The notes under the pieces are model-generated. The model searched no databases and was not told the origin of the DNA. It saw only the letters and a list, made by a program, of their open reading frames with translations. Positions 33,461 through 50,223 of a stretch of DNA of 50,786 bases are shown here, one piece after another; the first letter of the stretch is position 1, and every line of letters begins with the position of its first letter. The stretch comes from a virus (lineage: Duplodnaviria > Caudoviricetes), in IMG/VR virus record IMGVR_UViG_3300028610_001199, positions 1 through 50,786 of that record. One strand, 5' to 3'. Both the position numbers and the translations under genes were made by a program.

Positions 33461-33475
33461 TTAATAGGAGTTGTT

Positions 33476-33646: not shown

Positions 33647-33682
33647 TCCCTACCTTTAGATTGTAGGGGGATATTTTTCCCC

Positions 33683-33711
33683 TTGCAATTCTCCTTTCCC
33701 TATCTTATATT
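33683..33711 (+). promoter_or_regulatory. sigma70-type promoter, preceded by a CCCTAC/GTAGGG hairpin (probable terminator)
   Basis: TTGCAA-N17-TATATT upstream of the AAGGAG SD of 33742. Confidence 0.65.
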
Positions 33712-33741
33712 CTCCTAACTACTAATCAAAGGAGATAATTA

Positions 33742-34194
33742 ATGGGTACAAAATTCAAAGTCGGTGACAAGGTCATGGTAACAGATCCTATGTATGCAGA
33801 AGATATTATATATTGTAATAAAGTTTTTACTGTTAATAATGTAGATGATGCTGGAGATTGTTATGTAGATGAGAATGATGATATATGGATTGAGAGTGAA
33901 TTGACTAAAGTAGAAGAGAAGAAACCTATGGAAGAAAACTATGCTATATTACTAGCAGGTGTGTTGGTTAGAGAAAGTAATTTAAAGAAGGAATTAGAAG
34001 AATTAAAAGAAGAATTAAGGAGATCAGACCAAAGTAACACGGATCTTAGAAAACACCTAGAAAGTGAAGACTGTAAAAAGTGTAAGGAATTGGAAGTAGT
34101 GGTTGATGCTTATAAGAGAAAAGTAATTCGATTAGATAGTGAAAAAAATATGTGGTTTAGGGAATATCAAGATTTAAAGGAGACCTTTAGATGA
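33742..34194 (+). CDS. SH3/KOW-like domain + coiled-coil protein
   Basis: KFKVGDKVMV...WIESELTKV followed by heptads. Confidence 0.65.
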   Translation: MGTKFKVGDKVMVTDPMYAEDIIYCNKVFTVNNVDDAGDCYVDENDDIWIESELTKVEEKKPMEENYAILLAGVLVRESNLKKELEELKEELRRSDQSNTDLRKHLESEDCKKCKELEVVVDAYKRKVIRLDSEKNMWFREYQDLKETFR

Positions 34195-34484
34195 AGGTAA
34201 TTAATAAGAAAATTATAGTAGAGAACTTTGTAGTAGCAAGAGAAGCTACGGAGAATGGGATTATAACGCTAGGTGTAGTAGATCTTGGATATGGCATAGG
34301 CGTTATCTATGCGGGTGATGAGAAGGCAATGGAAGGAAATGGTTTGGCTGTAGGGGATATGGTATACTATCCTATAGGCGGCGGTATTGAAGAATTTGAC
34401 TATGATGGTAAGGATTTAACTGTTCTCCATGTGAATGCTATTATGGGGAAGAAGGAAGGGGTAGATGAATATGGAAAAGATTGA
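34191..34484 (+). CDS. groES: GroES-like co-chaperonin
   Basis: MKVINKKIIVE..TENGII..GVIYAG..LAVGDMVYY..EFDYDGKDLTVL..AIMG. Confidence 0.75.
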   Translation: MKVINKKIIVENFVVAREATENGIITLGVVDLGYGIGVIYAGDEKAMEGNGLAVGDMVYYPIGGGIEEFDYDGKDLTVLHVNAIMGKKEGVDEYGKD

Positions 34485-34665
34485 GCTAAACATGTTTGGT
34501 CCAAGCCCTTCTATAGAAGAAGTTATTGATAAGGTTCGTTTCCATAATATAGTTAAAATTGAACGATGTAGAGCTGAAGATGAAAATATTATAGCTATGA
34601 CATTGTCTAGATACCATAAATTACTAGAGAAACTGGCAGAAGGGGTTATAGATAATGAAATATAG
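34465..34665 (+). CDS. Hypothetical protein
   Basis: Overlapping operon ORF. Confidence 0.55.
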   Translation: MNMEKIELNMFGPSPSIEEVIDKVRFHNIVKIERCRAEDENIIAMTLSRYHKLLEKLAEGVIDNEI

Positions 34666-35116
34666 AGAAAAGAAGTCTTATAAATATGTGGTAGAAGAAA
34701 CCTATATCAAGGAATTACACTTAGACGAATATCCTAATTTAGATAGAGAATGTGATGGAGTGGGTAGTATGGCGCTAGAGAATGCTTTTGGTGAAAGATT
34801 AGGTGGTATTTGTCGATATGCTGGGACCCGTTGCAGTACTATGAGTATACAAGTTAATCCTGGGTATACTTGGGATGGGTGCAGCGGCCCAACTGTAGAT
34901 ACGGCTAACACTATGGCAGCTGGCCTCGTCCATGACTTCCTTTACCAGATGGTTAGAGAAGGAATCATATCCAAAGACTGCAAAGAAGATATTGACAATC
35001 TATTCCATAGTATATTAAGAGAATGTGGGGTAATCAAGATTAGGGCTTGGTATTACCATGAAGCTGTGAAGAGATTCGGCCACAGTAGTCTAGAATCAAA
35101 AGTTATAGAAGTCTAG
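34655..35116 (+). CDS. DUF1353-family protein
   Basis: PGYTWDGCSGP..AGLVHDFLYQ..DNLF..AVKRFG. Confidence 0.8.
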   Translation: MKYREKKSYKYVVEETYIKELHLDEYPNLDRECDGVGSMALENAFGERLGGICRYAGTRCSTMSIQVNPGYTWDGCSGPTVDTANTMAAGLVHDFLYQMVREGIISKDCKEDIDNLFHSILRECGVIKIRAWYYHEAVKRFGHSSLESKVIEV

Positions 35117-35118
35117 CT

Positions 35119-35773
35119 ATGGGAGAATTATATGAAGAAGATAAAGTTTTTATCGAGCTAACTAAGTCTATCAAAGGAGATGATGACGATTACTACCTAT
35201 TCCTACTAAAGTCTTATCAAGCTACTAATAGCATTGATCTAGTTAGGGATTTAATTGAAGATAGATACTCCCAAAACAAGGGTAATAATTTTAAAGGAAA
35301 TGTATAGCTATGGTAGGAATTAAATATAAGTTAGTTTGTGATGGGACTGATATCTATGGTAGTGGTGAGCAAATTATTGTCTATGAGAAAGGTTGTAGTC
35401 GATATAACGATCTAATAGCTAGTGTAGATAATAATGATATTGTTACTAAATGTAGATATGTAGCTCGGATTTTTGGATCTTATAATACCACTAGGACATA
35501 CTATATCTTAGTAGGAGAGAGTATAACTGTCGAAGGAACTACTTATTTAGGAGTTGAATAATTATGGATATGACTGATAATTATGAGTTTGCTTTATTCT
35601 CGTTTATAGTTAAATATGGGGAATGGTGGGTTGATTTAGCTAGAATTGATATTCCTTGCTTTAATGGGGCGTTATTTGGGATAGCTTTTCAATATGGTGA
35701 ATTAGATTATTTCGATATATTGTATCTAGGACAATTCACTTGGCATAAGAAGAAAAAGGAGAAAGAAGAATAA
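35119..35773 (+). other. Three small hypothetical CDSs (35119-35307, 35310-35561, 35564-35773)
   Basis: Contiguous ORFs with 2-nt gaps. Confidence 0.6.
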
Positions 35774-36393
35774 TGGGACCGTTTATAAATAAACTATATG
35801 AAGATTGTTGGAAAGAGAATCAGAAGCTCCATAAAAAGATTGCTGAACTAGAAACTAGTCGTAACTCTTTTAAGGAAATGGTTAAAAGGTATAAGACTAA
35901 AAATGAGTCTATGGGAATTGGTATAAGGAACCTTGAATTACTTAATCGGGAGAAAATTGAAGAATTGGAAGAGTATATTGAAGCAGTAGAAACAGATCGG
36001 GAGTACTATAAAAATGGGAGTGGTTTAAAACAAGCTGAGTTTACAATAGAAGTCCTTAAAAAGGATATTGAAGGGTTAAAAGAGCGACTAAACGAGAGAA
36101 GTTCTATTAAAGAAGATTATCAACTAGAAGAAATAGAAAGGTTAAATGGTACTATAAGGCACCAACGAGAAGAGATGGAAAGGATGGTGGACAGGGGGAA
36201 TGAAGTTATAGAAGGACTAGAAGAAGAAAGGGATAAACTCCTAGGTGCTATCCATGGCAATCGAGTTGATACTGAGAAGTTAGAAGCCCTTGAGTTGGAG
36301 AATAAGGATCTATATGACGCTGTTGATGATTTAGAAGATATGAATAAGATACTATTAATCCATTTACGAAGGATAGAAGGAGAAGGTAAGTGA
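35773..36393 (+). CDS. Long coiled-coil protein
   Basis: Continuous heptads, 206 aa. Confidence 0.7.
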   Translation: MGPFINKLYEDCWKENQKLHKKIAELETSRNSFKEMVKRYKTKNESMGIGIRNLELLNREKIEELEEYIEAVETDREYYKNGSGLKQAEFTIEVLKKDIEGLKERLNERSSIKEDYQLEEIERLNGTIRHQREEMERMVDRGNEVIEGLEEERDKLLGAIHGNRVDTEKLEALELENKDLYDAVDDLEDMNKILLIHLRRIEGEGK

Positions 36394-37113
36394 AAAAGTA
36401 TTCTGTCAAGAAATCTGAGTTAGAAGATGGTGTGGCGATAGACGTAGGTGATGGTGTGGGAATTGAAGAATTAATGGATCTAGTTACTAAACAATATGGT
36501 AGACATAATTGGTATGAGATTCATATAGTTGAAGATGCTAACATCCCTGGTTGGTATAATACCTTAAGTTATATCTCCAATAAGGAATATGTGGCGAAGG
36601 CAAAGGAGAGAAGATATAGCTTGGAAGATTTACTTAAAGAGACCCCACCTGGAAAACAGATAAAACATTTAAAGGGAGAGATTCAGAAAGGGAAGGATAA
36701 ATAATGGAATGGAAAGATCAGCAGTTGATTAACCTTGCAAAAGAGAAGAAAAATGCTACGGAACAAAACGAGAGACTATTTGACGAGGTTACTAGACTTA
36801 AGGAGAGAATAGAAGAAGTAGAGATGGAAAATAGAGTCCATTTAATTACTATGAAAGCATATATTACTTATATAATGGAGATAGAAGAATAATGGTAATT
36901 AAATATTTCTATGAGTTTAATGAAGATGGAGATGGTGGGGAACATTTCAATGTGACTGTTGATGATGAAGAATTCGTTGACCTTTATTCTCCCGTTGAAG
37001 ATAAAGAGATACTAGGTGTTATTGAAACTTTGATGGGACTTGTAAAGATGGCTTATGCTGCTGGTAAAGCTGGGGAAGAATTAGAGTTTATTGAAGAAAC
37101 AAAAGGATTGTAA
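36390..37113 (+). other. Three hypothetical CDSs (36390-36704, 36704-36892, 36892-37113)
   Basis: Coupled stop/start junctions with SDs. Confidence 0.65.
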
Positions 37114-37119
37114 GATAAC

Positions 37120-37156
37120 GGGGCAATTAAGGGGTCGCAAAAACTCCCTAAGCCCC
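37120..37156. terminator. Hairpin between convergent blocks
   Basis: GGGGC..TTAAGGGGT / ACTCCCTAA-GCCCC. Confidence 0.5.
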
Positions 37157-37163
37157 ATACTCC

Positions 37164-38620
37164 TTATACCTTCTTACCTTCCCGACTCCCACAACATTTC
37201 AAACATAGTAGTATTTTCTCTCCTACGTTACCAAAGAATTCAATCTCATCAACATTATCTACTACTAGGAATTGTTTGCTATTCTTATCAGTCTTACCAC
37301 AAGATTGGCAAGATAAGCCTTTATACTCTTTATCTAGGTACTTATTCAAATTATCCGTATCGTAATTCTTCATCAGTTCCATTAATTTCGACGTCCTTAT
37401 CATATTTAATTGCTTGTATTTCAAGTAGGTTAATTGTATAGTATACAAACCCACCAGCACTAGAGTCTGGATCTGGGTCTGTAAGTATTTGTATTTCAGC
37501 TATTCTTCTATCTGGATACTTCCTTTCTATGTAGGTTATAATATCTTCAACTTCAAACCCACTATCAACCCATACTCTCTTGGTCTTACTAAGATGGTTC
37601 TTTCTAGTAAACTCCCCCATCAACATTAGTCGGATTCTAGTTAAACGTGAATAGTCTCTAACCATTATTATAAATCGCCGTAATAGGTTCTGGAACTATA
37701 GGTAATATCTTAGCAGTCTCTTTACAATATTTTAGCCATCGTCGATAAGCTCCAGGGCAAGCTATACCTTTCTTTCTACTCTTCTTTTGTCGTTTTCTCA
37801 TTATCTCCCCCATTATTATTTCCCGTAAAAGAATCCCATTGTTCCAGGAAGAGTTTTAGGGCATCTTTAGTGGATTCAGGTGAAGGTATTACAATATTAC
37901 CAGAGACCCTATTCAATACATCAATATCGATCGGGCCAAAGTTTATACCCTGGTTAAGGTTAAATGCCGCTTCCCCTAGATTAATTCCATAATCAGCAGG
38001 ACCGTAGTATACTCTATTCTTTTTCTTAGCAATTCTCTGGTTAGATTTAATAAGGTTGCGTTTCTTAATATTCATATTTACCCCCCATTATGTAAAGGTA
38101 GTCGTTGACTTTAGCGCGGTCATTACGTTTAGCAGCAGCACGACTTTCCATAGTATTACCCCTATCACTAGGACCACCCAATTTAGCAAGTGTACGATCA
38201 AAACTGTTCCGATCTCTCTGTTCTTCTAATTCTTTCTGTCTATTACCCCCAATTGCTTCACCCAACGTTTCTTCTAATTCCCTTACAGTTGCTTTAAATA
38301 TACAATAATCCCACCTAAGACCACCAAAATCCTTCATACCGCCAGTATAGTGAGCTATCTTATGATTTATATCTTGTAGTATTCCTGGATGGAATTCCTT
38401 TAATTGTTGAATAACATCGATTCTACGTTCTAATTCAGTCATTATCTTTTATCCTTTAACTAGTATATATTCTTAGAAAAGATAGGAGAACAAAAAGATT
38501 CATCCCTATCGCTATTAAAAAGATATTAAAACGTTTAACTTTATCTTCATCTAGTATAAGTACTAGAAACGCAGTAGATATAGGCATACACACAAAATAC
38601 ATAAATACTGCCGCTACCAT
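37164..38620 (-). other. Leftward small-gene block: 37164-~37403 (Zn ribbon), 37351-37665, 37658-37801, 37776-38075, 38065-38442, 38456-38620 (2-TM)
   Basis: Overlapping or coupled minus-strand ORFs with SDs. Confidence 0.6.
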
Positions 38621-40085: not shown

Positions 40086-40914
40086 TATCTTTCTCCTTTA
40101 ATATTAATTAGTTAATCACCTTCTTATATACTAGTACAACTAGTTTTAGTATAGGGAATATATCTGTTAATTACTACTAAAAAATAGTAAATTCTAGTAT
40201 TGGATTTTAGAGTATTATATATTTAGAGTAGTCTAGTAAAATTGTAATATTTTGTACTATTGTTTTTTATTATAGTATATATTTAGAGAGGCTATACTAT
40301 ATCCCCTGCAGTTCCCTACCCCTATCCTATATCACTCCCATACCCCTTTAAGGTACACCCGGGGGTTAATCCTAATTGTATCTATTACCTATTATAATGG
40401 GTTCTTACTTCGTATTCTTCCCATATTGATAGTACTATACTAGAGCCTAGAGTATAGGTGTGTTCTGCTTACAGCTTCTTCACAACTCCTTCGACACAAT
40501 GCTTTGGTCTCTCTCAAACAAGTGGGTTCTGGCTGTCGCCTTCTCTCCAAGCTATATAGTTACTCGGAATTAGTAATGGTTAGTTCGTTCATAGTGCAGA
40601 ATAGTTAATACTATCCTTTCTATTTACCTGTATTAGTAGTAATACTCTATCTTATTTATTAAAAGTTCGCCCAAAATGCGGGCTAGATAACCTCCTCCCC
40701 TAGGGTAGAGAAATTAAAAATAAAGAGAAACTATCCCCTCCTCCTATATAGAGAGTAAAAGACTATAAGCTACTGTTAATACTAGTAGTTAGCTACTTAT
40801 TATAACTAGTAATTTAAATAGTCCTTGTAGAAGGGGATTTATTTACTAAATTGCATTATGCCTGATTACCACTAGGGTTACTAGTCACATTATTAATTAA
40901 AAAGGAGAGAGTTT
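40086..40914. other. Large non-coding divergent region (candidate genome end/pac or origin)
   Basis: ~830 bp with no long ORF; TATATATTTAGAG twice, C-runs, CCCGGG, several ACTAGT. Confidence 0.5.
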
Positions 40915-41106
40915 ATGTTATCAAGTTTAATTGGTTGGATGTTAGTAGTTATATTCTACATAGTAATAAGTGCTCTTGCTGCGTGTTCTGTAGCTGAGAG
41001 ATATTTTGTTAATAGTGGCGATGAAGATGATGATACTTTAGGTTGGTTAACATTTATATTCTTTTCAATATTATCCTATTTTACATTAAAAGTATTGGGT
41101 TTATAA
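40915..41106 (+). CDS. Two-TM small membrane protein
   Basis: AAGGAG SD; two hydrophobic segments around an acidic loop. Confidence 0.65.
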   Translation: MLSSLIGWMLVVIFYIVISALAACSVAERYFVNSGDEDDDTLGWLTFIFFSILSYFTLKVLGL

Positions 41107-41109
41107 CTA

Positions 41110-41361
41110 ATGGTGTTTAAAAACAAGATGAAGACTAGTATTAAAGCTAGTAAGAAACGATCACAAAGAGCTAGAACAAGAGAACTTAAAAAGAACAATC
41201 TCTCAGGCGTTACAGGAGTCTGGTATAATTCCCATAGATCAAAATGGATAGCTGAGATAACTTACAATAATTATAAATTCAAACTTGGAGCCTATAAATC
41301 AAAAGATAAAGCTATTGAAGAAAGAAAGAAAGCAGAAATCGCACTAAGATTCTATAAATAA
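41110..41361 (+). CDS. Stand-alone AP2 DNA-binding domain protein
   Basis: NNLSGVTGVWY..KWIAEI..KLGAY..AIEERKKAE, no HNH domain. Confidence 0.75.
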   Translation: MVFKNKMKTSIKASKKRSQRARTRELKKNNLSGVTGVWYNSHRSKWIAEITYNNYKFKLGAYKSKDKAIEERKKAEIALRFYK

Positions 41362-41390
41362 TCAAATAACCCACTCAGAAAGGCTTTAAA

Positions 41391-41606
41391 ATGAAGACAA
41401 CTAAAGAAAAAAAAGATGAATTACATATTAGGCTAAGTTATTTAACTAGTTATGTGCAATTACAACAATCTATATTAAACTACTGCGCTAAAAACAAGGA
41501 TTATGAAATAGATAACGTATTAAATATTTTAAGAAAACCACCAATGATGCATGAAACATCTAATGTGCTAGACCTATTAGAATTATATTTCACAATAAAG
41601 GACTAA
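41391..41606 (+). CDS. Hypothetical protein
   Basis: 71-aa ORF. Confidence 0.55.
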   Translation: MKTTKEKKDELHIRLSYLTSYVQLQQSILNYCAKNKDYEIDNVLNILRKPPMMHETSNVLDLLELYFTIKD

Positions 41607-41630
41607 AGATACTAAATAACCTGACGATAT
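41604..41630 (+). promoter_or_regulatory. sigma28-type promoter 1
   Basis: TAAA-N15-GACGATAT, upstream of the 41-aa membrane ORF 41661-41786. Confidence 0.7.
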
Positions 41631-41767
41631 CTATAGTACAACTTAACAACGGAGTTTATTATGGTAGATATCAGTCCTTCAACAGTATTACTAGCAATCA
41701 AACTAATTAAAACACTAGGATTTTTATGGGGTCTTTATTTATCCCACAGAGTATTTTGTTTTTTTAC

Positions 41768-41794
41768 TAAAGCTTTTAATAAGTAGGCCGATAC
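41768..41794 (+). promoter_or_regulatory. sigma28-type promoter 2
   Basis: TAAA-N15-GCCGATAC upstream of 41827. Confidence 0.8.
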
Positions 41795-41826
41795 CTTTAT
41801 TACACGACTAACAAGGGAGATATAAA

Positions 41827-42174
41827 ATGAGTCTAGACTTTAGCCTATATAGAAACGGCAAGTGGGATGATGGCGAAACGTTTACAACTGCGGTATTTGA
41901 TACAAATATCACCCATAATTTAAATGATTTGGCTGACGCTGTCGGCATTTATAACGCTCTTTGGAGACCTGAAGAAAATAATTTTATCTATGCTAAAGAT
42001 ATTATTCCTGTTGTCGATAAAGGGTTAAAGGAGTTGAAGGATAACCCAGAGAAATACAAGAAATATGACTCGCCTAACGGCTGGGGAGTATATAAAGACT
42101 TCGTCCCATGGGTTGAAGAGCTGTTAAAAGCCTGTAAAGAACATCCTAATTCAAAAATAGAGACAAACCGATAA
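41827..42174 (+). CDS. Conserved-type phage hypothetical protein
   Basis: NITHNL..ALWRPEE..SPNGWGVY..ACKEHP. Confidence 0.75.
   Translation: MSLDFSLYRNGKWDDGETFTTAVFDTNITHNLNDLADAVGIYNALWRPEENNFIYAKDIIPVVDKGLKELKDNPEKYKKYDSPNGWGVYKDFVPWVEELLKACKEHPNSKIETNR
41994..42020 (+). promoter_or_regulatory. sigma28-type promoter 3 (intragenic)
   Basis: TAAA-N15-GTCGATAA. Confidence 0.6.
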
Positions 42175-42265
42175 CTAAGGGAAACATCACACCAGAGCAT
42201 GCAAAAAAGACGCTCCGTTCGGTGATATTGGAATAGAAGACCCAACTCATTAACAAACTAGATTA

Positions 42266-42478
42266 ATGGAGAACATTATGCACATACCGTTCACCTGTAA
42301 ACACGACTGGAAAGTATTATCTGAGACTGTAACTAAATCAAGATTCGAAGTGCTTACTCAAATAGGAGATTTTGAAGGCTTAAAAACGAGGGGAGGTAGT
42401 ATGTTTAAAAGAAAACACATTCAAATAATCACCTGCGATAAATGCGGTAAATTAAAACGATTCGTAGATGAGATATAG
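42266..42478 (+). CDS. Small Zn-binding protein
   Basis: CKHDW...CDKCGK. Confidence 0.65.
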   Translation: MENIMHIPFTCKHDWKVLSETVTKSRFEVLTQIGDFEGLKTRGGSMFKRKHIQIITCDKCGKLKRFVDEI

Positions 42479-42480
42479 AC

Positions 42481-42744
42481 ATGAAAAAGCAAGAAATCAT
42501 TGGTAAAGTATTTAAATGCGTACATGAACTCGGCGAAGTTAATCGCGCTCTAGGATTGTTGGATCTAAAAATTATGCTTAAAGAGAATGTTCCGAATGAT
42601 TTAAAAGGCTTTCTTGAGAAGAATATTAAAAATGCTGATAAACTAATATCAGAAAGTAAGAGAATAAGAAAAGAAATAGAAAAAGAATTAAAAACTATTC
42701 TTGAAAATAATATTAAAGATTCTGAAAGCTCTACCAATAACTAA
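42481..42744 (+). CDS. Helical protein, paralogue of 43195-43419
   Basis: KQE.I...LKT.LENNIKD shared. Confidence 0.7.
   Translation: MKKQEIIGKVFKCVHELGEVNRALGLLDLKIMLKENVPNDLKGFLEKNIKNADKLISESKRIRKEIEKELKTILENNIKDSESSTNN
42714..42740 (+). promoter_or_regulatory. sigma28-type promoter (variant -10)
   Basis: TAAA-N15-ACCAATAA upstream of the XRE regulator. Confidence 0.55.
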
Positions 42745-42786
42745 GATAATCAATGACATGAGTAGACAAGTTAAGGAGATATAAGC

Positions 42787-43077
42787 ATGCAATTAGGTGG
42801 AGTAATAAAGCACTACAGGAAAAGAGAGAAGATGAGACAGTATGAACTTGCTGAGCTCTTAGAAGTGACTCAAAGCTATTTATCACAAATAGAAAACAAT
42901 AAGAGATATCCAAGCATTGACTTACTAAAAGAATTGGCTGACGCATTCGGCCTTCTAGTGTCTCACATGATATTTATAGCTGAACACAACTTAGAAGAGC
43001 ACGAGATTAGCACTGTTGATAACCATTATCTAGAAATAACTCAACAAATCTTTAGAGACGCTAACAAGGAGCTTTAA
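42787..43077 (+). CDS. XRE-family HTH transcriptional regulator
   Basis: IKHYRKREKMRQYELAELLEVTQSYLSQIENNKRYPSIDLLKELA. Confidence 0.9.
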   Translation: MQLGGVIKHYRKREKMRQYELAELLEVTQSYLSQIENNKRYPSIDLLKELADAFGLLVSHMIFIAEHNLEEHEISTVDNHYLEITQQIFRDANKEL

Positions 43078-43194
43078 CAATGAAAAAATTCATTAATGAC
43101 AACCCAGAAATGACGATTATTGTTGTTATGACAGCGTTAATAATTATTCACGATTTATTAAAATAATAACTAACATCATCTAGGGAGCTGTAAC

Positions 43195-43419
43195 ATGAAC
43201 AAGCAAGAGCTTATTAATCAGATTTTGAAGCACGTTAAAGACCTTAACGAAATTACCTACACTTTGGGACAAGCAAAGCAAGCCATGAAAGAAAGGGGAG
43301 TGAAGGATACTAAGGGACTTATTAAAGAAGGAATAGAGATAAAAAAAGAAGCAGAGAAACAATTAAAAACCTTTCTTGAAAATAATATTAAAGATTATAA
43401 AGAGTCTACCGATAACTAA
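43195..43419 (+). CDS. Helical protein, paralogue of 42481-42744
   Basis: 64-bp 3' repeat with 56/64 identity. Confidence 0.7.
   Translation: MNKQELINQILKHVKDLNEITYTLGQAKQAMKERGVKDTKGLIKEGIEIKKEAEKQLKTFLENNIKDYKESTDN
43389..43415 (+). promoter_or_regulatory. sigma28-type promoter
   Basis: TAAA-N15-ACCGATAA, upstream of the 30-aa TM ORF 43458-43550 (AGGAGG SD). Confidence 0.8.
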
Positions 43420-43554
43420 GATAAGCAACACAACAACTTACACCTTAGGAGGACATTATGATTGAATTCAAACTTGCCCTACAAATCATCCTTTACACAA
43501 TTACTGCCATGTCTACAGTCCTAGCATTTAGCACAATGAAGAAAGGTTAGTATT

Positions 43555-43818
43555 ATGAAATCAAGCGAACAATTCCCGAATGGAATAGATAGCTACCTTG
43601 AAACATATTACGAAGTTTGCACAACTATTGAACATGTTATGATTACGAAATGCTCTGACGTGGTGAACGATGCGACAAAAAAAGGCGGTAGAACAGAGTT
43701 ATATAATTTATCTGAAACGCTAACACGCAAATTTGAGACTGAGCACAAGGGTTTCAAGTGGGGTATCTATGGTGAGTTTCTTGATGAAATATGCAGTTTT
43801 ATTGAAAAAGAATTATAG
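43555..43818 (+). CDS. Conserved-type phage hypothetical protein
   Basis: FPNGIDSYLETYYEV...LTRKFE. Confidence 0.7.
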   Translation: MKSSEQFPNGIDSYLETYYEVCTTIEHVMITKCSDVVNDATKKGGRTELYNLSETLTRKFETEHKGFKWGIYGEFLDEICSFIEKEL

Positions 43819-43840
43819 TAATTAAAAAGCCTGCCGATAA
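43814..43840 (+). promoter_or_regulatory. sigma28-type promoter driving the structured RNA
   Basis: TATA-N15-GCCGATAA (perfect -10). Confidence 0.75.
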
Positions 43841-43844
43841 TATA

Positions 43845-43955
43845 GTTACAGTTCGAATCTGTAACAGTATCTACAGGGTGAGCGAGTTCGAGTCCCGCAA
43901 AGCTAAAATTCTGGTGAAAAGTAGGCTGTTGTCAGGTGTGCAGCTCTGTAGATAC
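43845..43955 (+). ncRNA. tRNA-like / Y-RNA-like structured RNA with two T-loops
   Basis: GTTACAG-TTCGAAT-CTGTAAC hairpin; 12-bp closing stem 43867-78/43944-55 enclosing GCGAG-TTCGAGT-CCCGC. Confidence 0.6.
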
Positions 43956-43985
43956 AATATTTAAAACTTAACTAAGGAGAATACT

Positions 43986-44174
43986 ATGCAAGAATATACT
44001 AACTACATGAATTACCTAGCCTTCAAAATTGGTGCTGAGTTACCTAATGACGTTGCTAAGAAGAGAGATAATATCGGTATATACTACCAAGTAGGTTCCT
44101 ATTGCTTCACTAACCCTAGATATGCTCTTAATTACTCTACTATTTACCAAAACTTAAAGGATGTGTACAAATGA
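43986..44174 (+). CDS. Hypothetical protein
   Basis: AAGGAG SD. Confidence 0.65.
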   Translation: MQEYTNYMNYLAFKIGAELPNDVAKKRDNIGIYYQVGSYCFTNPRYALNYSTIYQNLKDVYK

Positions 44175-44368
44175 GAAATGAAAAGGGTTTAGGCTGGAAA
44201 CAAAGACAAATTTTAAATTTTATCAAACGAAATCATGTTACAGGCAAAGTATTCTCATTCGGTAGAGACATGTTGCAAGTCATTCAATCGCTACAAGAAC
44301 GTGATTTAGTTAAGATAATAAACATTAGTTACTATGAACATAGAGTTATTCTAAGAATCCATAAATAA
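44171..44368 (+). CDS. Small winged-helix-like protein
   Basis: LGWKQRQILNFI...IQSLQERDLVKI. Confidence 0.55.
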   Translation: MRNEKGLGWKQRQILNFIKRNHVTGKVFSFGRDMLQVIQSLQERDLVKIINISYYEHRVILRIHK

Positions 44369-44383
44369 ATCATAAAAAAGAAC

Positions 44384-44410
44384 TAAAGTAATTCTACTAA
44401 CTACCGATAC
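44384..44410 (+). promoter_or_regulatory. sigma28-type promoter
   Basis: TAAA-N15-ACCGATAC upstream of 44451. Confidence 0.8.
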
Positions 44411-44450
44411 TATATTTAGACAACAGAACAACACAACTAAGGAAAACATC

Positions 44451-44786
44451 ATGAAACATCTAAAAGAATTATCAAAAGGCGATGGCTTTATTTACAATCA
44501 ATTAGTTGACTTAAGAAATGCTTTATTGAAAGGCCGCTTTTATTCATCCGTTGAAAGCGTGAGTAAATCAGGTTCAGGTCGTATAATTAAATTCGGTTAT
44601 ATTAAAAACAATAGATTGGTTGTTGTCCATCGGGAAGAAATAAAGAATTTAGCCGGATGTAATAAAAACGGCCGCATTACTGGTGGTGGTATGGATATGC
44701 TTTTCCACTCTCAATATATCCTATTCAGAAAACTATGTCCTAAATCTGACTATAGAACTCACATGAAAGAATACAACAGGCTCTAA
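44451..44786 (+). CDS. Conserved-type phage hypothetical protein
   Basis: VSKSGSGRII..GGGMDMLFH motif. Confidence 0.7.
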   Translation: MKHLKELSKGDGFIYNQLVDLRNALLKGRFYSSVESVSKSGSGRIIKFGYIKNNRLVVVHREEIKNLAGCNKNGRITGGGMDMLFHSQYILFRKLCPKSDYRTHMKEYNRL

Positions 44787-44804
44787 AATAAGGATGGTGA
44801 TGCA

Positions 44805-45191
44805 ATGGGTAGGAAGAAAAGAAGGTTCGGGGAAGGTCTAGAGCTAGGAAAACACCAAAAAGATATACTAGCCTATCTAGAGAAAGAAGGTAGTTTTATA
44901 ACTATAAACTCTAGATGTAAACAAACCCTAGCGCTATTAGAAAGAAGAAAGCTGATTACAATTGTTAAAGGTGGGGAGATTGGACAACTGAAATATATAC
45001 AATACAAAGAAAGTTTAAAACTATGGCAAGTCAAGATATATTGTAACCAAAAAATAAAACACATAGGTAATTTTAAAACCAGAGCCGAAGCCGTAGAAGC
45101 TAGGAATGAAAGTGACCTCCTTATCCCCCATACCAGAAAACAAAGAAATAAATCATGCTGGACTGCTTATTTAATTAAAGGACTAATATAA
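44805..45191 (+). CDS. Winged-helix-like + AP2 domain protein
   Basis: LGKHQKDILAYL..LLERRKLITI then WQVKI..KHIGNFKTRAEAVEARN. Confidence 0.6.
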   Translation: MGRKKRRFGEGLELGKHQKDILAYLEKEGSFITINSRCKQTLALLERRKLITIVKGGEIGQLKYIQYKESLKLWQVKIYCNQKIKHIGNFKTRAEAVEARNESDLLIPHTRKQRNKSCWTAYLIKGLI

Positions 45192-48100
45192 TGGTAATAC
45201 CAATGGGACTTACAGAATTTCTACTATTTTTTATAGGACTACTAAATTGTATCTACGGATATGCAAACAATAACGATACCTATCTAATAATTGCCCATAT
45301 ATTTCTAGTTGGTGGTGTGGTATGTATGAAAATAGAAAGTACAAGACAATGGGAAAGATGACTATAGACGAGAAAATAGAGCAATTCAATACTCTATGTG
45401 AAGTAAAAGACGTGCCGGACGAGATAACCCTAGAAACTAATGTGAAACTCCCAACAGGCGAAAACTTAGTTCTTACTGTTAGCTGGAATCATGGGAAAAC
45501 ATTAGCCAAGATGTTGTTTGAAGATCTACAGAATTGAGATAATTAGGCTCTAATATCAATCCTAAGCAACTTTAATAGTTTCTAGGTACTATCTACTTAA
45601 ATAGAGATAAGGAAGGCTTAAAATGGCAGAAATCAGATGGTGTTTTTTCGATAATAGTTCAGGTTGGGAAGTTTGTTCAGAGCCAACGACCACAGATTTA
45701 ATTGATTTAGCTAATAAGAGATTGAAAGACGATGATGAGTTTAAATGTTGTAAGAATTGTCCACCAAAGAATATTGACAATGTTAAAACTTTATTGAATA
45801 CGCTAAATGAAGATGAATTAAAATCACATAATGATAACTTTGAACATACAATAGAATTAGAAATTACTATAAGTCCAGGTACTTCAACGGCTGAAGAGAT
45901 AAAAGAATTATATAACGCGCTAGATCATCTTCATCGTGCTTGTGGCGGGTATGGGATATTAATTAAGGACAGAGAATAATGGAAAGCTATAGAACAAATA
46001 ACCCTCTACGATCGGCCTTATGTATATTTATGGTTATGATTGTGGCTATTGATACCCTTACAATTAACACAACAATTATTTTTTATTCAATATGTTTTGC
46101 AATAGGTGGTATATTATATTATATGGAAAGGCGATACTATGGAACAAGGAAAGTTTACGCAAGCAGCTGTTATAGATCATAGTCTATTTGAATTTAAGAG
46201 ACTATTAGAAAGTGCTACTTTTGATAATGACGGCAATATAGAAATTACTTATGATGGCTCTTATTATGAATTTGATGGATATATATTTAAACAGATGGTA
46301 GAAGCTAAAATTAAAGACCTAGAAAAACAATTTAAGGAGTTGTAAAATGAATAGAGTAAAAATTAATTTAGCTAATGAATTAGCTGCAGAAATAGACCTT
46401 TTAGACGAAGTTATGGACCGTATAAGAGATGATAAAGGGTACTTGATTGAAATTAATACAACTGGTGGGAGCTATTGCCTAAACAGTGAAGATTTAAAGA
46501 AAGGTATAATGAATTTAATAGATGAGCGATATGACCAGCTTTGTCATGAGCTTGAAGCGCTATGAATAAAAGAGAAGAAATTGAGAAAATCACAACTAGA
46601 GCGGCAGTCGGGCAAATTCTAAAAGGTATTGAAAATAAGAGTAAGCAATATTATGAAGCACAAACAACCTTCACATTAAAAACTATGTTGACTAATAATG
46701 AAATTGTAACCCAAGAGATTGAAAATATGCCAGAAGAAGTTGATAAAGCATTTGGTGCGGATTTATTAGTAATAATATCGACTATATCTTTAAATAATAA
46801 CTATATTATCGAAGTATTAACAGAACGTGGTGAATTATGATAACAGATGAGAAAGTTCAAGAATTAATTAAAGCTATTAGAAACGCTGACGATGATATTA
46901 CTACAGCGGCAAGGAAACAAGATAATCCGCGCATAGAGATTAGAGAGAGAAAGTCGTCTGAACGATTAAAAAGGAGATTGAATAATGGGAGCTATTAAAT
47001 TTGAAAAGCCTAAGACCGTGACCGGATATAGTGATAACACTGGGGCTATTCACCAAGACGAGATTAGCGCTAGAGAAGAAAACTTTAACGAAGCTCTTAT
47101 CATATTCACAGAAAAGAGAGACCTTGACTTCGCTGACTTTAAATATGCGATTATCCACCACAGTTATGATATACAAGCTTTTATAGCTGAAATTGAGTTA
47201 ATTGATCAATTATTGAAAGGGAGGTTGAATAATGGCTGAATATGAAAAGATAATCGCGTATAAAATAATAGATGGTGATAATTCTTTAGAAATATTTGAT
47301 ACGGAGAAAGAAGCTATTTCCTATTGTAAAATAATTGAACTCGAAGAAGCATTTGAGATTGCTGGCGCGATTATAACATTAGGACATATCAAAGATTGGC
47401 TTGATGAAAATTCTACTATTGTTATTAATTATTTACAAAGAGATGACGATAACAAAGAAGAGACTAAACCTAATATTAGATTGTTAAAAAATAAGGAGCT
47501 TATGAAAGAAGGTGACCTTGATTATGACTTCCATTTAGAAAGTTGGTTCCCTTTTAAATATAGCTTAGTTGATATTAAATACGACCACATAGCCCATGGA
47601 CAAATTGGAAGGTTAATATAATGGCTACTAATAGCGGGACTATTCGACAGACAGCATTTAGAACACTATCAAACCTTAACGACTACGAAAGAGACGCAGC
47701 AATAAGAAGACTAGAAAAGGTGTACTTTAAGATCACAGGTATTGAAGGCCAGATTGACTTTCAAAGAACTATGATAAATGATTTAAGGCTTAAATGGTCT
47801 AATAACGATGGGTTGATTGTAGATCCGGCTACGTTAAGCCTGGGGGCTATAGTCTTCTGGACTGAAGGGGAAAAGCTCCACGCTTCATGCCCTGATATTT
47901 TTGATGCATTTGATATAAAAGATCATAGAGAATTAATAACTTATGGAGAAGAATAATGAAAGAGATAGCTGGATTAGCAATAATCATATTTCTAGGATAC
48001 AGTATTATAGGTACTGGGACACGTGTAGACGAAATAAGAGCTAAAGTCCCTGAATCTATAGCGGGAAGAAGCTGGAAAATTATAAGATATGAAGGATACC

Positions 48101-48589
48101 AGTATGGTAGTTGGTGTAACCACGGGGGAAAAGTTTGGTACCATGTAAAAGATTTAAAACAAAAAAATACTTATTACAGGGTTTACGTGACTATTTGGGG
48201 CAATGAATTACAATATAATTATGGAGAACCAGAAACCCTTAACCGTGTAGATCTAGAGATTACAGGTGATTATAATGGGAATTAAGCAACAACGCGCTAA
48301 TTCACGAGCAACTAAGACTGACTGGGAAGCTCTCGAAAAAGAAGAGCGTAGTATGTATAAGACAGGGTTTGCAATTGAAACAGTACGTCATATTCAAAAT
48401 CTTCTTAATCCAATAGAATCTGATGAGCATGTATATGAAGTAATTGCCCACGAGCTAAAGGTTTTATCAACAGAGTACGATGTATATTGTAGTAGATACA
48501 GAGAATTAAGTAAGTTTGTAATTAAGGATCTACAATTTGAGATTAGTGAGTTTGAAAAAGAAAAGAAGGAGATTGAAGATGGAGTATGA
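45191..48589 (+). other. Run of small hypothetical CDSs (45191-45361 2-TM, 45358-45537, 45623-45979, 45979-46182 TM, ~46139-46345, 46347-46565, 46562-46840, 46985-47239, 47232-47621, 47621-47956, 47956-48285 signal anchor, 48266-48589)
   Basis: Tightly coupled same-strand ORFs with SDs. Confidence 0.65.
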
Positions 48590-48985
48590 TAAATTAAAAA
48601 TTCAAATGGCAATAGTTCTTTGGGATAACCACAAAACAATCGAAGTTGATGTTGGTGGGAACACATGTATCCATTGCGGTAACAGCACTCACTTTCAACC
48701 TCACAAAGTTGATTGTATTATACCAGATGTTAAAGAATATTTAATAACTATTGGAGTTTGAAAAAGAGAAAAAGGAGATTGAAGATGAAGGTTGATAAGC
48801 TCAAAATCAAGATGGCCGCAGCTATTTGGGATAAACACTTAGTTGTAGATCATAATGGTAGCGCTGCCTGCAATTATTGTGGGACAGTTGAAAAGTACTG
48901 GCACGACGATGATTGCCTTGTCTTGGATGTTAGAAGATATTTAATAGAAAAAGAAAAGAAGGAGATTGAAGATGGAAGAGATTAA
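48579..48985 (+). other. Tandem paralogous Zn-finger CDSs (48579-48761, 48785-48985)
   Basis: DKLKI.MA...WD.H...CxxCG...H..DC...DV..YLI in both; same RBS repeat upstream of each. Confidence 0.75.
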
Positions 48986-49135
48986 AATAATTCAAATTAC
49001 CGCTAGTGAAGATGGAGAGATCCATGGGTTAGGAAGCAATGGGTTGGTTTATTGGCTAGTGTCTAGTTCTAGCGCTAATTACAAAGAAGGTGAATGGCTT
49101 TGTGTTTCTAGTAATGTTTTTAAGGAGAAAAAATA

Positions 49136-49369
49136 ATGGCTGTAATATCAACACTACCGAATGACGCGATGGCTAAAGAACAAGACTATCCTAAATTAAT
49201 GAAGGTAAAGGACACAGGCTTAATTGTACTATTCTCATCAAGAAAGATGGGGCAAGTAGTGTTTGCCGATAAAAATTGGCCTATTGGAGAGACATCCAAC
49301 AATTGAGACATGCACGGATTCGAAGACTATAGCGGATCTGTAACTTTACAAAACAAAAAAGGAGAGTAG
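49136..49369 (+). pseudogene. Small gene interrupted by an in-frame TGA at 49304
   Basis: YPKLMKVKDTGLIVLF...GETSNN*DMHGFEDYSGSVTLQNKKGE continues in frame to the next gene. Confidence 0.55.
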
Positions 49370-49371
49370 AT

Positions 49372-50223
49372 ATGGCTTTATACAATTCATACGGCGAACT
49401 AGTCTACGAAGTCCCTACAGCTAAGGGCGATAAGATGAAAAGCGTTAACACTACTGAAATTGCTAGAAGAATTAAAGACCCTAGTATAGGCGGTATGCTG
49501 TATCCTAGAGTATCTGACATCCTATCAGTATGGAATAAGCCAAGTCTAGTACAATGGATTAAAGAACAAGGAATATTGGCTGCATTAACTACAGATAGAT
49601 TAGAAGGAGAAGACGATATAGCTTTTATGAAGAGATTAGAAGTTGATAGTAATGATGCTAGGGATAAAGCTGCTGAAGCTGGTACTATTATCCATAAGTA
49701 TTTACAATTATTAATTATAGAGCAAGAAGTTGAACCATTTCCCCACCGCCATCTTTACGATATAGCTTATCTAGCTTACTATGAAATCGAAAACTACTTA
49801 TACGAGAACTATGGTGCTAAATTTTCTATTGGCAGACTTGAGACCGAAATCCCTTTAGTAAATAGAGAATTAGGTTATGCTGGGACTGTAGATTGCATTA
49901 TTAATTCTGGAGGTAGCTCACCAATTTACCTAGACTTTAAGACAAAAGACCGCCTTGATAAGAAGAATAAAAGTGATTATGTTTTTACTGAGAACGGACA
50001 ACAGCTCTGTGCATATGCTTTAGCTAGAAAAGAATTCGATAATGCTATACTCATAAACGTCTATATCGATAGAGAAACAGGTCATGTAGAGTTTTTTCAG
50101 TGGGTTGAAGGAGACAATAAGCTTCATAGTAAGTGGAGAAAATCTACACAAAAGGAACTGTTCTTAAACGCATTAAATTCTTACCACCTAATGAGAAATA
50201 TCGATTACTCTAAAATATTCTAA
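49372..50223 (+). CDS. PD-(D/E)XK (RecB/Cas4-like) exonuclease
   Basis: YPRVSDIL, AGTIIH, E.PL, YAGTVD, LDFKT and QLCAYA motifs. Confidence 0.85.
   Translation: MALYNSYGELVYEVPTAKGDKMKSVNTTEIARRIKDPSIGGMLYPRVSDILSVWNKPSLVQWIKEQGILAALTTDRLEGEDDIAFMKRLEVDSNDARDKAAEAGTIIHKYLQLLIIEQEVEPFPHRHLYDIAYLAYYEIENYLYENYGAKFSIGRLETEIPLVNRELGYAGTVDCIINSGGSSPIYLDFKTKDRLDKKNKSDYVFTENGQQLCAYALARKEFDNAILINVYIDRETGHVEFFQWVEGDNKLHSKWRKSTQKELFLNALNSYHLMRNIDYSKIF

What the first reader, a model, noticed from the sequence alone, without database searches (positions are those of the whole stretch)
41604..44410. Phage gene island wired to host flagellar sigma28 (FliA/SigD) promoters
Seen: a bipartite motif with an exact 15-nt spacer recurs on the + strand at 41604 (TAAA..GACGATAT), 41768 (TAAA..GCCGATAC), 41994 (TAAA..GTCGATAA), 42714 (TAAA..ACCAATAA), 43389 (TAAA..ACCGATAA), 43814 (TATA..GCCGATAA) and 44384 (TAAA..ACCGATAC). 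In all seven the -35 tetramer is followed by G. There is also a -10-only site ACCGATAA at 42167 and an outlier at 46869 (TAAA..GACGATGA). Most sites lie just upstream of an A/C-rich leader and SD. Established: TAAA-N15-GCCGATAA is the sigma28 consensus. Other promoters I found (25600, 25658, 26069, 33683) are sigma70-type, and I see no phage sigma factor or RNAP. Inference: this block, next to the candidate genome end, is transcribed only in cells with active sigma28. The phage could be reading host motility state, or titrating sigma28 away from flagellin genes to cut receptor supply. The controlled genes include an XRE regulator, wHTH/AP2 proteins, tiny membrane peptides and an ncRNA.
Basis: partly seen in the sequence, partly recalled or inferred. 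Interest (0 to 1): 0.9.

Follow-up and report, generated by a model that had tools for sequence, protein, structure and literature searches.

The report
Flagellar-sigma-type promoter array in a phage
A 2.8-kb stretch of a complete, otherwise unknown phage genome carries a real, far-from-chance row of promoter-like sites that match the consensus of the bacterial flagellar sigma factor, but with the host unknown and no RNA data it is not shown who reads them.

Summary
All nine motifs are at the stated coordinates. The exact pattern TAAAG-N16-CGATA occurs 5 times, all on the + strand at 41604-44409, against 0.11 expected. Seven sites within two mismatches of TAAA-N15-GCCGATAA fall in 2.81 kb of one strand; the largest such cluster in 1000 dinucleotide shuffles was 4.

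The sites behave like promoters. They are co-oriented with the genes, lie 23-138 nt before start codons with Shine-Dalgarno sequences, have A/T-rich upstream flanks, and carry an A eight bases after the -10 octamer in 8 of 8. They match the published sigma28 consensus TAAAGTTT-n11-GCCGATAA, including the G.

No sigma-like gene was found in the complete 50.8-kb phage.

The reading as host sigma28 control is only partly supported:
- The host is unknown.
- The one host clue points to Cloacimonadota, where FliA is uncommon (14 of 121 genomes).
- No relatives or RNA data exist.
- An unrelated phage record with the same motif encodes its own divergent sigma.

Two sites are paralogous copies and one is intragenic. 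Best reading: a host sigma28-family factor reads them, about 0.5.

The parts
41604..41630 (+). P1: TAAAG-N14-GACGATAT. It overlaps the stop codon of ORF 41391-41606. Predicted start A at 41638, 23-nt leader to ATG 41661.
41768..41794 (+). P2: TAAAG-N14-GCCGATAC (1 mismatch to consensus), spanning the end of ORF 41661-41786. Predicted start A at 41802, 25-nt leader to ATG 41827.
41994..42020 (+). P3: TAAAG-N14-GTCGATAA inside ORF 41827-42174, with no start codon nearby. Either an internal promoter or the one chance member.
42167..42174 (+). P4: -10-type octamer ACCGATAA only; AATT stands at the -35 position. It overlaps the stop of ORF 41827-42174. The following ACCGATAACTAAG is shared with P5 and P6 in a different reading frame. 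84-nt leader to ATG 42266.
   Evidence: (D13)
42714..42740 (+). P5: TAAAG-N14-ACCAATAA, with A in place of the G of the CGA core. It lies within the 3' end of ORF 42481-42744. 39-nt leader to the XRE gene at ATG 42787. Paralogous copy of P6.
   Evidence: (D3)
43389..43415 (+). P6: TAAAG-N14-ACCGATAA within the 3' end of ORF 43195-43419. Leader of about 35 nt to the ATG at 43458 of a 30-aa hydrophobic peptide.
43814..43840 (+). P7: TATAG-N14-GCCGATAA, overlapping the stop of ORF 43555-43818. Predicted start A at 43848.
   Evidence: (D4)
43848..43985 (+). 138-nt structured leader or candidate ncRNA downstream of P7. It has a 5' hairpin with a T-loop-like TTCGAAT, then a long stem. No terminator follows; SD and ATG 43986 come next.
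   Evidence: MFE -36.2 kcal/mol, z -1.76; 7 of 200 shuffles fold as well; no Rfam match; no tRNA
44384..44410 (+). P8: TAAAG-N14-ACCGATAC in the 82-nt gap before ORF 44451-44786. 33-nt leader that is 82% A+C. It is 75% identical to P7 over 44 nt. It is the last promoter-like site before a tightly packed + strand gene string that runs to 50687 and on to Erf at 480-1337.
   Evidence: (D4)
41661..41786 (+). 41-aa hydrophobic peptide ORF downstream of P1.
41827..42174 (+). 115-aa ORF, phrog_4019 (unknown function), downstream of P2.
42266..42478 (+). 70-aa ORF, phrog_5841 (unknown function; CxxC pair at the C-terminus).
42481..42744 (+). 87-aa ORF, paralogue of 43195-43419. Its 3' end encodes P5.
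42787..43077 (+). 96-aa XRE-type HTH regulator (HTH_3, E 4.9e-15), downstream of P5.
43080..43166 (+). 28-aa hydrophobic peptide ORF, read from the sequence.
43195..43419 (+). 74-aa ORF, paralogue of 42481-42744. Its 3' end encodes P6.
43458..43550 (+). 30-aa hydrophobic peptide ORF downstream of P6.
43555..43818 (+). 87-aa ORF, phrog_34395 (unknown function).
43986..44368 (+). Two overlapping small ORFs (62 aa and 65 aa) downstream of P7 and its leader. No family hit. That the second looks like a winged helix is my reading of its sequence only.
44451..44786 (+). 111-aa ORF downstream of P8. Its homologues (43-54% identity) lie in four IMG/VR contigs that lack Shine-Dalgarno sequences and lack the motif.

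Best explanation
The stretch 41.6-44.4 kb is an array of sigma28-class promoters (the FliA/SigD/WhiG type). There are six independent full sites: P1, P2, P3, P5/P6 counted once, P7 and P8. There is also one -10-only site, P4. All point the same way as the genes.

Most sit on the last codons of one small gene and fire into the next. With no terminators between them, they would give nested transcripts across about a dozen small genes: membrane peptides, an XRE regulator, two paralogues and proteins of unknown function. From P8 transcription would run on into the long + strand string that ends with the exonuclease and Erf recombination genes.

The phage has no sigma factor of its own. The most likely reader is therefore host RNA polymerase carrying the host's sigma28-family factor, so the output of this module would follow the amount of free sigma28 in the infected cell.

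Shown: the motif, its enrichment, its strand and its positions; the match to the consensus; and the lack of a detectable phage sigma. Inferred: that the sites are promoters, that a host sigma28 reads them, and any link to motility.
For: - Match to the published consensus. E. coli TAAAGTTT-n11-GCCGATAA, with activity falling from 223 to 50 units when the G of the aer -35 is changed (passages of PMC2859248). The general flagellar consensus TAAA / GCCGATAA is used with at most 2 mismatches to find promoters, 12 of 20 of which had mapped starts (passages of PMC8325347). All 7 sites meet that criterion.
- Enrichment and strand bias.
- Fixed 15-nt spacer with unconserved spacer sequence, as for a sigma factor rather than a dimeric repressor.
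- Promoter context: A/T-rich upstream flanks, A at +8 after the octamer in 8 of 8, and leaders of 23-84 nt (138 for P7) ending in SD and ATG.
- The octamer plus CTAAG recurs at three ORF ends in two different reading frames, so the conservation is at the DNA level (D13).
- In the paralogue pair, the 90 nt holding the promoter are 84% identical while the 5' 95 columns are about 55% identical.
- No sigma in the complete record: Sigma70_r2, r4, r4_2 and FliA_WhiG models on six frames gave 0 hits, with controls positive in 10-14 of 14 genomes. A local FliA profile and the G236 sigma against 277 six-frame fragments gave a best E of 0.055.
- An unrelated phage record (G236) shares no protein with the window yet carries the same universal motif: 12 sites against 0.66 expected. 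This fits a reader that is conserved across bacteria.
- Precedent: single prophage genes on FliA promoters, namely flxA (PMC1935009 Table 2) and fliCP (passages of PMC10705468).
Against: - The host is unknown, so the presence of a sigma28 factor in it is unknown.
- The only host clue is the Erf N-domain. It is closest to two Cloacimonadota MAGs (58% and 53% identity) that have no FliA above the curated cut-off. In that phylum 14 of 121 sampled genomes have one.
- The portal has no relative in 232 genomes of that phylum, apart from one weak hit, so even this clue is thin.
- No transcript data: the only run holding the DNA is a DNA run.
- No relative carries the island, so conservation could not be tested.
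- G236 encodes a divergent sigma70-family ORF, which shows that a phage with this motif can have its own sigma.
- P5 has CAA instead of the CGA core, P7 has TATA, P3 is intragenic, and P5/P6 are copies.
- Each octamer is followed by a TAnAnT-like hexamer (TATAGT, TATATT, TAAGAT). A weak sigma70-type -10 cannot be excluded, though no -35 fits (one search lists none of these sites).
Confidence: 0.5

Rival explanations
1. The sites are promoters, but a phage-encoded specificity factor reads them or is required for them. This could be an unrecognisably divergent sigma or a sigma-appropriating protein. The likeness to sigma28 promoters would then be convergent or inherited from a captured factor.
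For: About 70 of the roughly 99 ORFs have no family assignment. Phage sigmas can be very divergent. The unrelated record G236, with 58 sites against 12.4 expected, encodes a 260-aa sigma70-family ORF that scores only 20-23 bits on Sigma70_r2 and that the FliA_WhiG model missed at E<=1.
Against: Four sigma models, a local FliA profile, the G236 sigma as query and a region-2 motif search all find nothing in the complete window. The G236 protein resembles RpoD/SigA region 2, not FliA (14.8 bits), so it is not shown to read the motif even there. A non-homologous factor arriving at all 12 consensus positions and the exact spacing of sigma28 is unlikely a priori (inference).
Confidence: 0.22
2. The conserved [A/G]CCGATA box is chiefly a binding site for a phage DNA-binding protein, and is not or not only a -10 element. 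Candidates are the stand-alone AP2-like protein 41110-41361, the 44805-45191 protein or the XRE regulator.
For: An AP2-like ORF lies just upstream of the island: Pfam AP2 at 22.2 bits, below the cut-off, and a match to the AP2 part of HNH endonuclease phrog_99 at E 6e-12. Plant AP2/ERF domains bind [A/G]CCGAC-type boxes; this is recalled and comes from no call. The -10-only site P4 and the GCCGATAA at 49265 have the box without a proper -35.
Against: This does not explain TAAAG at a fixed 15-nt distance in 7 sites, the single orientation, or the constant distance to start codons. The box is not palindromic or repeated, as XRE operators usually are (one search shows no such repeats at the sites). 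ORF 44805-45191 has no Pfam hit and only a marginal likeness to the AP2 ORF (E 0.094).
Confidence: 0.13
3. Chance plus local duplication: an A/T-rich region with a duplicated gene end that happens to resemble the consensus.
For: The whole-window count at up to 2 mismatches is only about twice the expectation: 12 against 6.1, with 26 of 1000 shuffles reaching 12. Two sites are copies of each other.
Against: The cluster has 7 sites (6 counting the copies once), against a maximum of 4 in 1000 shuffles. There are 5 exact extended matches against 0.11 expected. All are on the coding strand and placed before start codons, with an A at +8 in 8 of 8.
Confidence: 0.03

Closest known systems
Sigma28 (FliA / SigD / WhiG) class promoters of bacterial flagellar, chemotaxis and related regulons
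   Same: The -35 TAAA(G), the 15-nt spacer (11 between the octamers) and the -10 GCCGATAA-type octamer with a CGA core. Position a few tens of nt before start codons.
   Different: They are on a phage genome, clustered 6-8 in 2.8 kb, in front of small phage genes of unknown function rather than motility genes. No start sites or sigma dependence are known.
Single prophage cargo genes driven by host FliA: flxA of the Qin prophage in E. coli (PMC1935009, Table 2 passage) and prophage flagellin fliCP in Enterobacter (PMC10705468, passages)
   Same: A phage-borne gene placed under the host flagellar sigma factor.
   Different: Those are one gene per prophage, expressed from a lysogen, and in the fliCP case the gene is itself flagellar. 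Here a whole co-oriented module of about a dozen genes, and possibly the operon behind it, would be wired this way. The phage has no integrase that I could find (no Pfam or PHROG hit in the ORFs scanned).
Multi-promoter early or host-takeover modules of virulent phages, such as the SPO1 terminal-repeat module and the T7 A1-A3 and T5 early promoters (recalled, from no call)
   Same: Many small genes of unknown function, each with its own promoter and a strong Shine-Dalgarno sequence, all in one direction.
   Different: Those use the host's primary sigma (sigma70/SigA). Here the consensus is that of the flagellar alternative sigma. The temporal class of this module is not known.
IMG/VR record G236 (120.6 kb, 73% complete; loci L124, L159-L165)
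   Same: Strong enrichment of the same motif: 12 sites at up to 1 mismatch against 0.66 expected, and 58 at up to 2 mismatches against 12.4. Of the 12 sites with up to 1 mismatch, 10 lie shortly before an SD and ATG.
   Different: It shares no protein with the window. Its sites also share the spacer (TTTTTTAAAAAA-like) and are spread over the record. It encodes a divergent sigma70-family ORF.

Membership tests
sigma28-class (FliA/SigD/WhiG) promoter | -35 element TAAA, extended TAAAG in the E. coli consensus | tested here: met
   TAAAG in 6 of 7 full sites and TATAG in 1 (P7). P4 lacks it. Consensus from PMC2859248 passages.
sigma28-class (FliA/SigD/WhiG) promoter | Spacer of 15 nt between TAAA and the -10 octamer (11 nt between the two octamers) | tested here: met
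   Exactly 15 nt in 7 of 7.
sigma28-class (FliA/SigD/WhiG) promoter | -10 octamer GCCGATAA with a CGA core | tested here: met
   CGATA in 6 of 7 full sites and in P4; P5 has CAATA. Total mismatches to TAAA+GCCGATAA are 1 in four sites and 2 in three.
sigma28-class (FliA/SigD/WhiG) promoter | Transcript start a few bases downstream of the -10 octamer | not testable with these tools
   An A eight bases after the octamer in 8 of 8 sites is compatible. There are no RNA data.
sigma28-class (FliA/SigD/WhiG) promoter | Activity depends on RNA polymerase carrying a sigma28-family factor | not testable with these tools
   Needs in vitro transcription or fliA+/- reporters.
sigma28-class (FliA/SigD/WhiG) promoter | The organism in which it acts encodes a sigma28-family factor | tested here: inconclusive
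   Host unknown. The MAGs nearest by Erf (G001, G002) have no FliA_WhiG hit over the cut-off, while G003 and G005 do. In the phylum of G002, 14 of 121 genomes have one.
promoters of a phage-encoded sigma factor | The phage encodes a sigma70-family protein | tested here: not met
   0 hits for PF04542, PF04545, PF08281 and TIGR02479 on six frames of the complete record. Local profile and phmmer searches gave a best E of 0.055. A sigma too divergent for these models cannot be excluded.
single-subunit phage RNA polymerase promoters (T7-like) | A contiguous conserved stretch of about 20 nt, and a phage RNAP gene | tested here: not met
   The motif is bipartite with an unconserved spacer. No ORF longer than 1103 aa and no polymerase family hit in the ORFs scanned.

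The most novel reading that the evidence does not exclude
A virulent-looking phage with no sigma of its own drives a whole host-takeover-like module, and through P8 perhaps its recombination operon, from the host's flagellar sigma factor rather than the housekeeping one. These genes would then fire only in cells whose flagellar programme has reached its last stage, when FlgM has been exported and sigma28 is free. That is the state of a cell displaying a rotating flagellum, which would suit a phage that adsorbs to flagella. Many promoter copies on replicating DNA could also drain sigma28 from host class 3 genes. The same consensus, strongly enriched in an unrelated 120-kb phage record, suggests that sigma28-type promoter arrays are a recurrent and undescribed phage strategy.
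Probability: 0.3. Interest if true: 0.8.

Novelty: new variant of a known kind. Interest (0 to 1): 0.62.

Why it matters
Phage early and middle transcription is known to use the host primary sigma, phage-encoded sigmas or phage polymerases. Use of the flagellar alternative sigma is documented only for single prophage cargo genes (flxA, fliCP).

A module-wide array would be a new way for a phage to couple gene expression to a host physiological state, namely motility and flagellar assembly. It would be easy to test, because sigma28 specificity is conserved across phyla: a cloned fragment could be assayed in E. coli or B. subtilis fliA/sigD backgrounds even though the natural host is uncultured.

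It also gives a concrete search image for mining phage genomes: clusters of TAAAG-N14-nCCGATAn on one strand. One further enriched record turned up in a capped scan.

Tried and rejected
- **Relatives to test conservation.**
  - GenBank phages gave no DNA match to 41000-46000 and no tblastn match to the portal or TerL.
  - IMG/VR: ORF 41827 gave 2 loci, and ORF 44451 gave 4 loci that lack Shine-Dalgarno sequences. None has the motif before the homologue.
  - The portal gave one 4.3-kb fragment (89% identity) and one distant hit.
  - The exonuclease gave none in IMG/VR and only 23-31% relatives in metagenomes.
- **RNA evidence.** No RNA holder is listed; the one run that holds the stretch is a DNA run and may be the source.
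- **Host.**
  - The Erf and HNH tblastn hits are spread over many host phyla, and the tail spike gave one weak Bacillus phage hit.
  - The ESM Atlas gave only viral terminase clusters.
  - Only Erf is shared with the five bacterial loci.
  - The portal is absent from 232 genomes of the G002 phylum, apart from one weak hit.
- **Consensus in that phylum.** I looked for the motif before flagellin genes of five FliA+ genomes. There was no match at up to 2 mismatches before the flagellin ORFs in the six loci scanned; those genes share another upstream motif, GATTGGTTTGGTTTAGCC. The fliA loci were equally unhelpful. This says nothing about the phage.
- **Second Cloacimonadota sigma.** The 284-290-aa sigma in G001 and G002 looks RpoD/RpoS-like in region 2, by my reading without a family scan. 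It is not a sigma28 candidate.
- **RNA families.** Rfam gave nothing at gathering scores and only chance snoRNA hits at E 3-4. No tRNA was found.
- **G237.** This 89.9-kb record first looked like a second case but is not enriched: 3 against 0.86 and 19 against 14.8.
- **Literature.** Eight full-text searches found no paper describing arrays of sigma28/SigD promoters in a phage genome. The flagellotropic-phage review PMC9266447 mentions sigma factors only in its reference list. Supplements were not seen, and subscription journals are not covered.
- **Not used.** Structure prediction, fold search, complex prediction, the search for homologous proteins and the search of protein representatives were not used: there was no candidate sigma to fold, and these tools give no taxonomy for the host question.

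Full report
**What the window is.** The window is a complete IMG/VR virus record of 50,786 bp. Its first and last 144 bp are identical. G+C is 36%.

It has three transcription blocks:
- A - strand structural block at 2251-25582, with the portal at 18955-20994, the large terminase at 20998-22689 and a tail spike at 11116-13440.
- A + strand block at 26137-37629, followed by a short - block to 40085.
- After an 829-bp non-coding stretch, a + strand block from 40915 that runs through the record's end into 47-2004. This block includes an exonuclease at 49372-50223 and Erf at 480-1337.

The phage is an orphan. GenBank phages give no DNA match to 41-46 kb and no tblastn match to the portal or terminase. 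IMG/VR holds only a 4.3-kb fragment with an 89% identical portal. Most ORFs have no family.

- The extended pattern TAAAG-N16-CGATA occurs 5 times, all on the + strand at 41604-44409, against 0.11 expected; none of 100 shuffles reached 5.
- CCGATA occurs 6 times on the + strand, 5 of them in the island.
- I also used a published search rule, at most 2 mismatches to TAAA / GCCGATAA (passages of PMC8325347). The whole window has 12 sites against 6.1 expected, which alone is weak (26 of 1000 shuffles reach 12). But 7 of them fall within 2.81 kb of one strand, while the largest such cluster in 1000 dinucleotide-preserving shuffles was 4.
- At up to 1 mismatch there are 4 sites, all in the island, against 0.3 expected.

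Caveats:
- P5 (42714) and P6 (43389) lie in a duplicated 90-nt stretch at the ends of two paralogous ORFs.
- P3 (41994) is intragenic.
- 46869 is intragenic and within chance.

**Why the sites look like promoters.**
- The aligned sites give A.TAAAG.t..Taaa....cT.cCGATA.......TA.
- The spacer sequence is not conserved but its length is fixed, and the two halves are not symmetric. That is the signature of a sigma factor rather than of a dimeric regulator.
- Upstream flanks are A/T-rich.
- Eight bases after the octamer there is an A in 8 of 8 sites, preceded by T in 6 of 8 (G in P4, A in P3).
- From that A the leaders are 23, 25, 84, 39, about 35, 138 and 33 nt long. They are A-rich and T-poor, and each ends in a Shine-Dalgarno sequence and ATG.
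- The promoters are packed onto gene ends. The stop codons of ORFs 41391-41606 and 43555-43818 lie in the -35 element. The stops of 41827-42174, 42481-42744 and 43195-43419 lie in or just after the octamer.
- ACCGATAACTAAG recurs at these three ends in two different frames, so it is conserved as DNA and not as protein (D13).
- In the paralogue pair, the promoter-bearing 3' 90 nt are 84% identical while the first 95 columns are about 55% identical.
- P7 and P8 are 75% identical over 44 nt, beyond the core (D4).
- No terminator-like site lies between the units on the + strand.

**What the motif matches.** The E. coli sigma28 consensus is TAAAGTTT-n11-GCCGATAA. In the aer promoter (TAAAGATA-n11-GCCGACAT), changing T1, A3 or the G lowers activity about 4- to 10-fold (passages of PMC2859248). 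The flagellar-clade consensus TAAA / GCCGATAA also holds for WhiG in non-flagellated actinobacteria (passages of PMC8325347). The island sites fit in both elements and in spacing.

The phage also has a different, sigma70-like class elsewhere:
- CCCCTTGCAA-17-TATATT at 33680.
- TTGCAT-17-TATCTT at 26067.
- TTGCTA-17-TATTAT at 25283 on the - strand.

So the host evidently uses ordinary primary-sigma promoters, and the island stands apart.

**Who reads the sites.** A phage copy of a sigma28 homologue can be set aside. Sigma70_r2, r4, r4_2 and FliA_WhiG models on all six frames gave nothing, even at E up to 1 or 10, while the controls rang in 10-14 of 14 genomes. A FliA profile built from six fetched FliA proteins, and phmmer with the G236 sigma, gave no significant hit in 277 six-frame fragments. 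A region-2 motif search in 99 ORFs gave one spurious hit. This leaves the host's sigma28-family factor as the simplest reader.

Against that, the host is unknown.
- The one clue is the Erf N-domain. Its nearest relatives among 185,579 species genomes are two Cloacimonadota MAGs (58% and 53% identity), then an FCB-group MAG.
- Those loci use strong Shine-Dalgarno sequences as the phage does: GGAG/GAGG before 15 of 20 and 9 of 16 long ORFs, against 12 of 36 in the window and 0-2 in the four Bacteroidetes-like phage contigs. One has the same G+C, 36%.
- The two MAGs have no FliA above the cut-off.
- Only 14 of 121 genomes sampled from that phylum have one.
- Only Erf is shared, and the portal has no relative in 232 genomes of the phylum.

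The clue is weak either way. If it is right, it lowers the odds of a sigma28 host but does not exclude it.

**A second phage with the motif.** A capped IMG/VR scan for a 14-base version of the motif gave 116 stretches with one match each, about what chance predicts. Rescanning them for clusters singled out L124.

- Its record, G236 (120.6 kb, 73% complete, 32% G+C), has 9 exact extended matches against 1 for the reversed control.
- It has 12 sites at up to 1 mismatch against 0.66 expected, and 58 at up to 2 mismatches against 12.4.
- Of the 12 sites with up to 1 mismatch, 10 lie shortly before an SD and ATG.
- It shares no protein with the window at E<=1e-3.

This cuts both ways. The same universal consensus in unrelated phages fits a conserved host reader. 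But G236 encodes a 260-aa divergent sigma70-family ORF:
- It scores 20-23 bits on Sigma70_r2.
- Its nearest matches are RpoD/SigA region 2.
- It scores only 14.8 bits on FliA_WhiG.

So a phage-borne reader is possible there. The window has no counterpart of that ORF. G237, a second candidate, is not enriched.

**What the module would do.** The genes behind the promoters are:
- three tiny hydrophobic peptides of 41, 28 and 30 aa;
- an XRE-type HTH regulator (E 4.9e-15);
- two paralogous proteins of 74-87 aa;
- members of PHROGs 4019, 5841 and 34395 of unknown function;
- two small ORFs behind a 138-nt structured leader that begins with a hairpin at the predicted 5' end (z only -1.76; no Rfam family).

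From P8 the gene string is unbroken up to the exonuclease and Erf. The layout of many small genes, each with its own promoter and a strong ribosome site, recalls host-takeover modules of virulent phages (recalled, from no call), but with the wrong sigma. No integrase was found among the ORFs scanned. Whether the module is early, or what it does to the host, is not shown.

**Comparison with what is known.** Single prophage genes on FliA promoters are known: flxA of Qin (PMC1935009, Table 2 passage) and prophage flagellin fliCP (PMC10705468, passages). Eight full-text searches found no report of an array of such promoters driving a phage module. The library lacks most subscription journals, and supplements were closed.

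I therefore class this as a new variant of a known kind, if the host sigma28 reading holds.

**Verdict.**
- Observation: confirmed.
- Interpretation: partly supported.

| Reading | Probability |
|---|---|
| Host sigma28-family factor reads the sites | about 0.5 |
| Phage-encoded or phage-dependent reader | about 0.22 |
| Mainly a regulator binding site | about 0.13 |
| Chance | about 0.03 |
| Something not thought of | the rest |

The claims about sensing motility or titrating sigma28 are untested.

Noticed in passing
G236 = IMG/VR record behind L124 and L159-L165 (sites e.g. at 104231, 109057, 110682, 111029 on +; 115623, 115907, 119359 on -): An unrelated 120.6-kb phage record is heavily enriched for TAAAGTTT-N11-GCCGATAA: 12 sites at up to 1 mismatch against 0.66 expected, and 58 at up to 2 mismatches against 12.4. 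Most sites lie just before an SD and ATG. The record encodes a divergent 260-aa sigma70-family ORF (L171:1153-1935, - strand).
   Followed up: partly
window 40086-40914: An 829-bp non-coding stretch between the divergent - and + blocks. It has C-rich runs (40290-40375), a 44-nt direct repeat (40185/40245) and no Rfam match. It could be an origin, a packaging site or an ncRNA region.
   Followed up: no
window 25583-26136: A 554-bp non-coding stretch between the divergent structural and + strand blocks, holding sigma70-like promoters. No Rfam match.
   Followed up: no
window 33680 (+), 26067 (+), 25283 (-): A second promoter class with a C-rich extension of the -35: CCCCTTGC(A/T)(A/T)-N17-TATnnT. 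Similar strings at 9830 and 23809 lie on the + strand inside the - strand block.
   Followed up: partly
window 24151-24597 (-): A 148-aa protein with the dATP/dGTP diphosphohydrolase N-terminal domain (PF18909, E 6e-25). As I recall, this family is tied to phages with modified purines. No other gene of such a pathway was looked for. A 30% identical relative is in G237.
   Followed up: no
window 48548-49025: Three tandem copies of an 85-nt unit (80% and 61% identical), each spanning an SD and the start of a small Cys-rich ORF. This is a recently amplified small-gene family.
   Followed up: no
window 43845-43900: Two hairpins with tRNA T-loop-like sequences (CAGTTCGAATCTG and GCGAGTTCGAGTCCCGC) at the start of the P7 leader. 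ARAGORN finds no tRNA.
   Followed up: partly
window 28034-29808: Three consecutive ORFs with N-terminal signal-peptide-like segments. By my reading one is FN3-like, and one has a C-terminal match to phage tail proteins (phrog_17312). They lie in the + strand non-structural block.
   Followed up: no
window 32321-33166: A 281-aa ORF with metallophosphoesterase-like motifs (GDxHW, GNHE, GDIHD) by eye, but no Pfam or PHROG hit.
   Followed up: no
window 49265-49272: A perfect -10-type octamer GCCGATAA inside ORF 49136-49306, about 100 nt before the exonuclease gene. There is no TAAA at the right distance.
   Followed up: partly
L033-L042 (flagellin loci of five FliA+ genomes in the phylum of G002): Four to five tandem flagellin genes per genome. 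In the loci inspected, several share the upstream motif GATTGGTTTGGTTTAGCC rather than a sigma28-type promoter.
   Followed up: no
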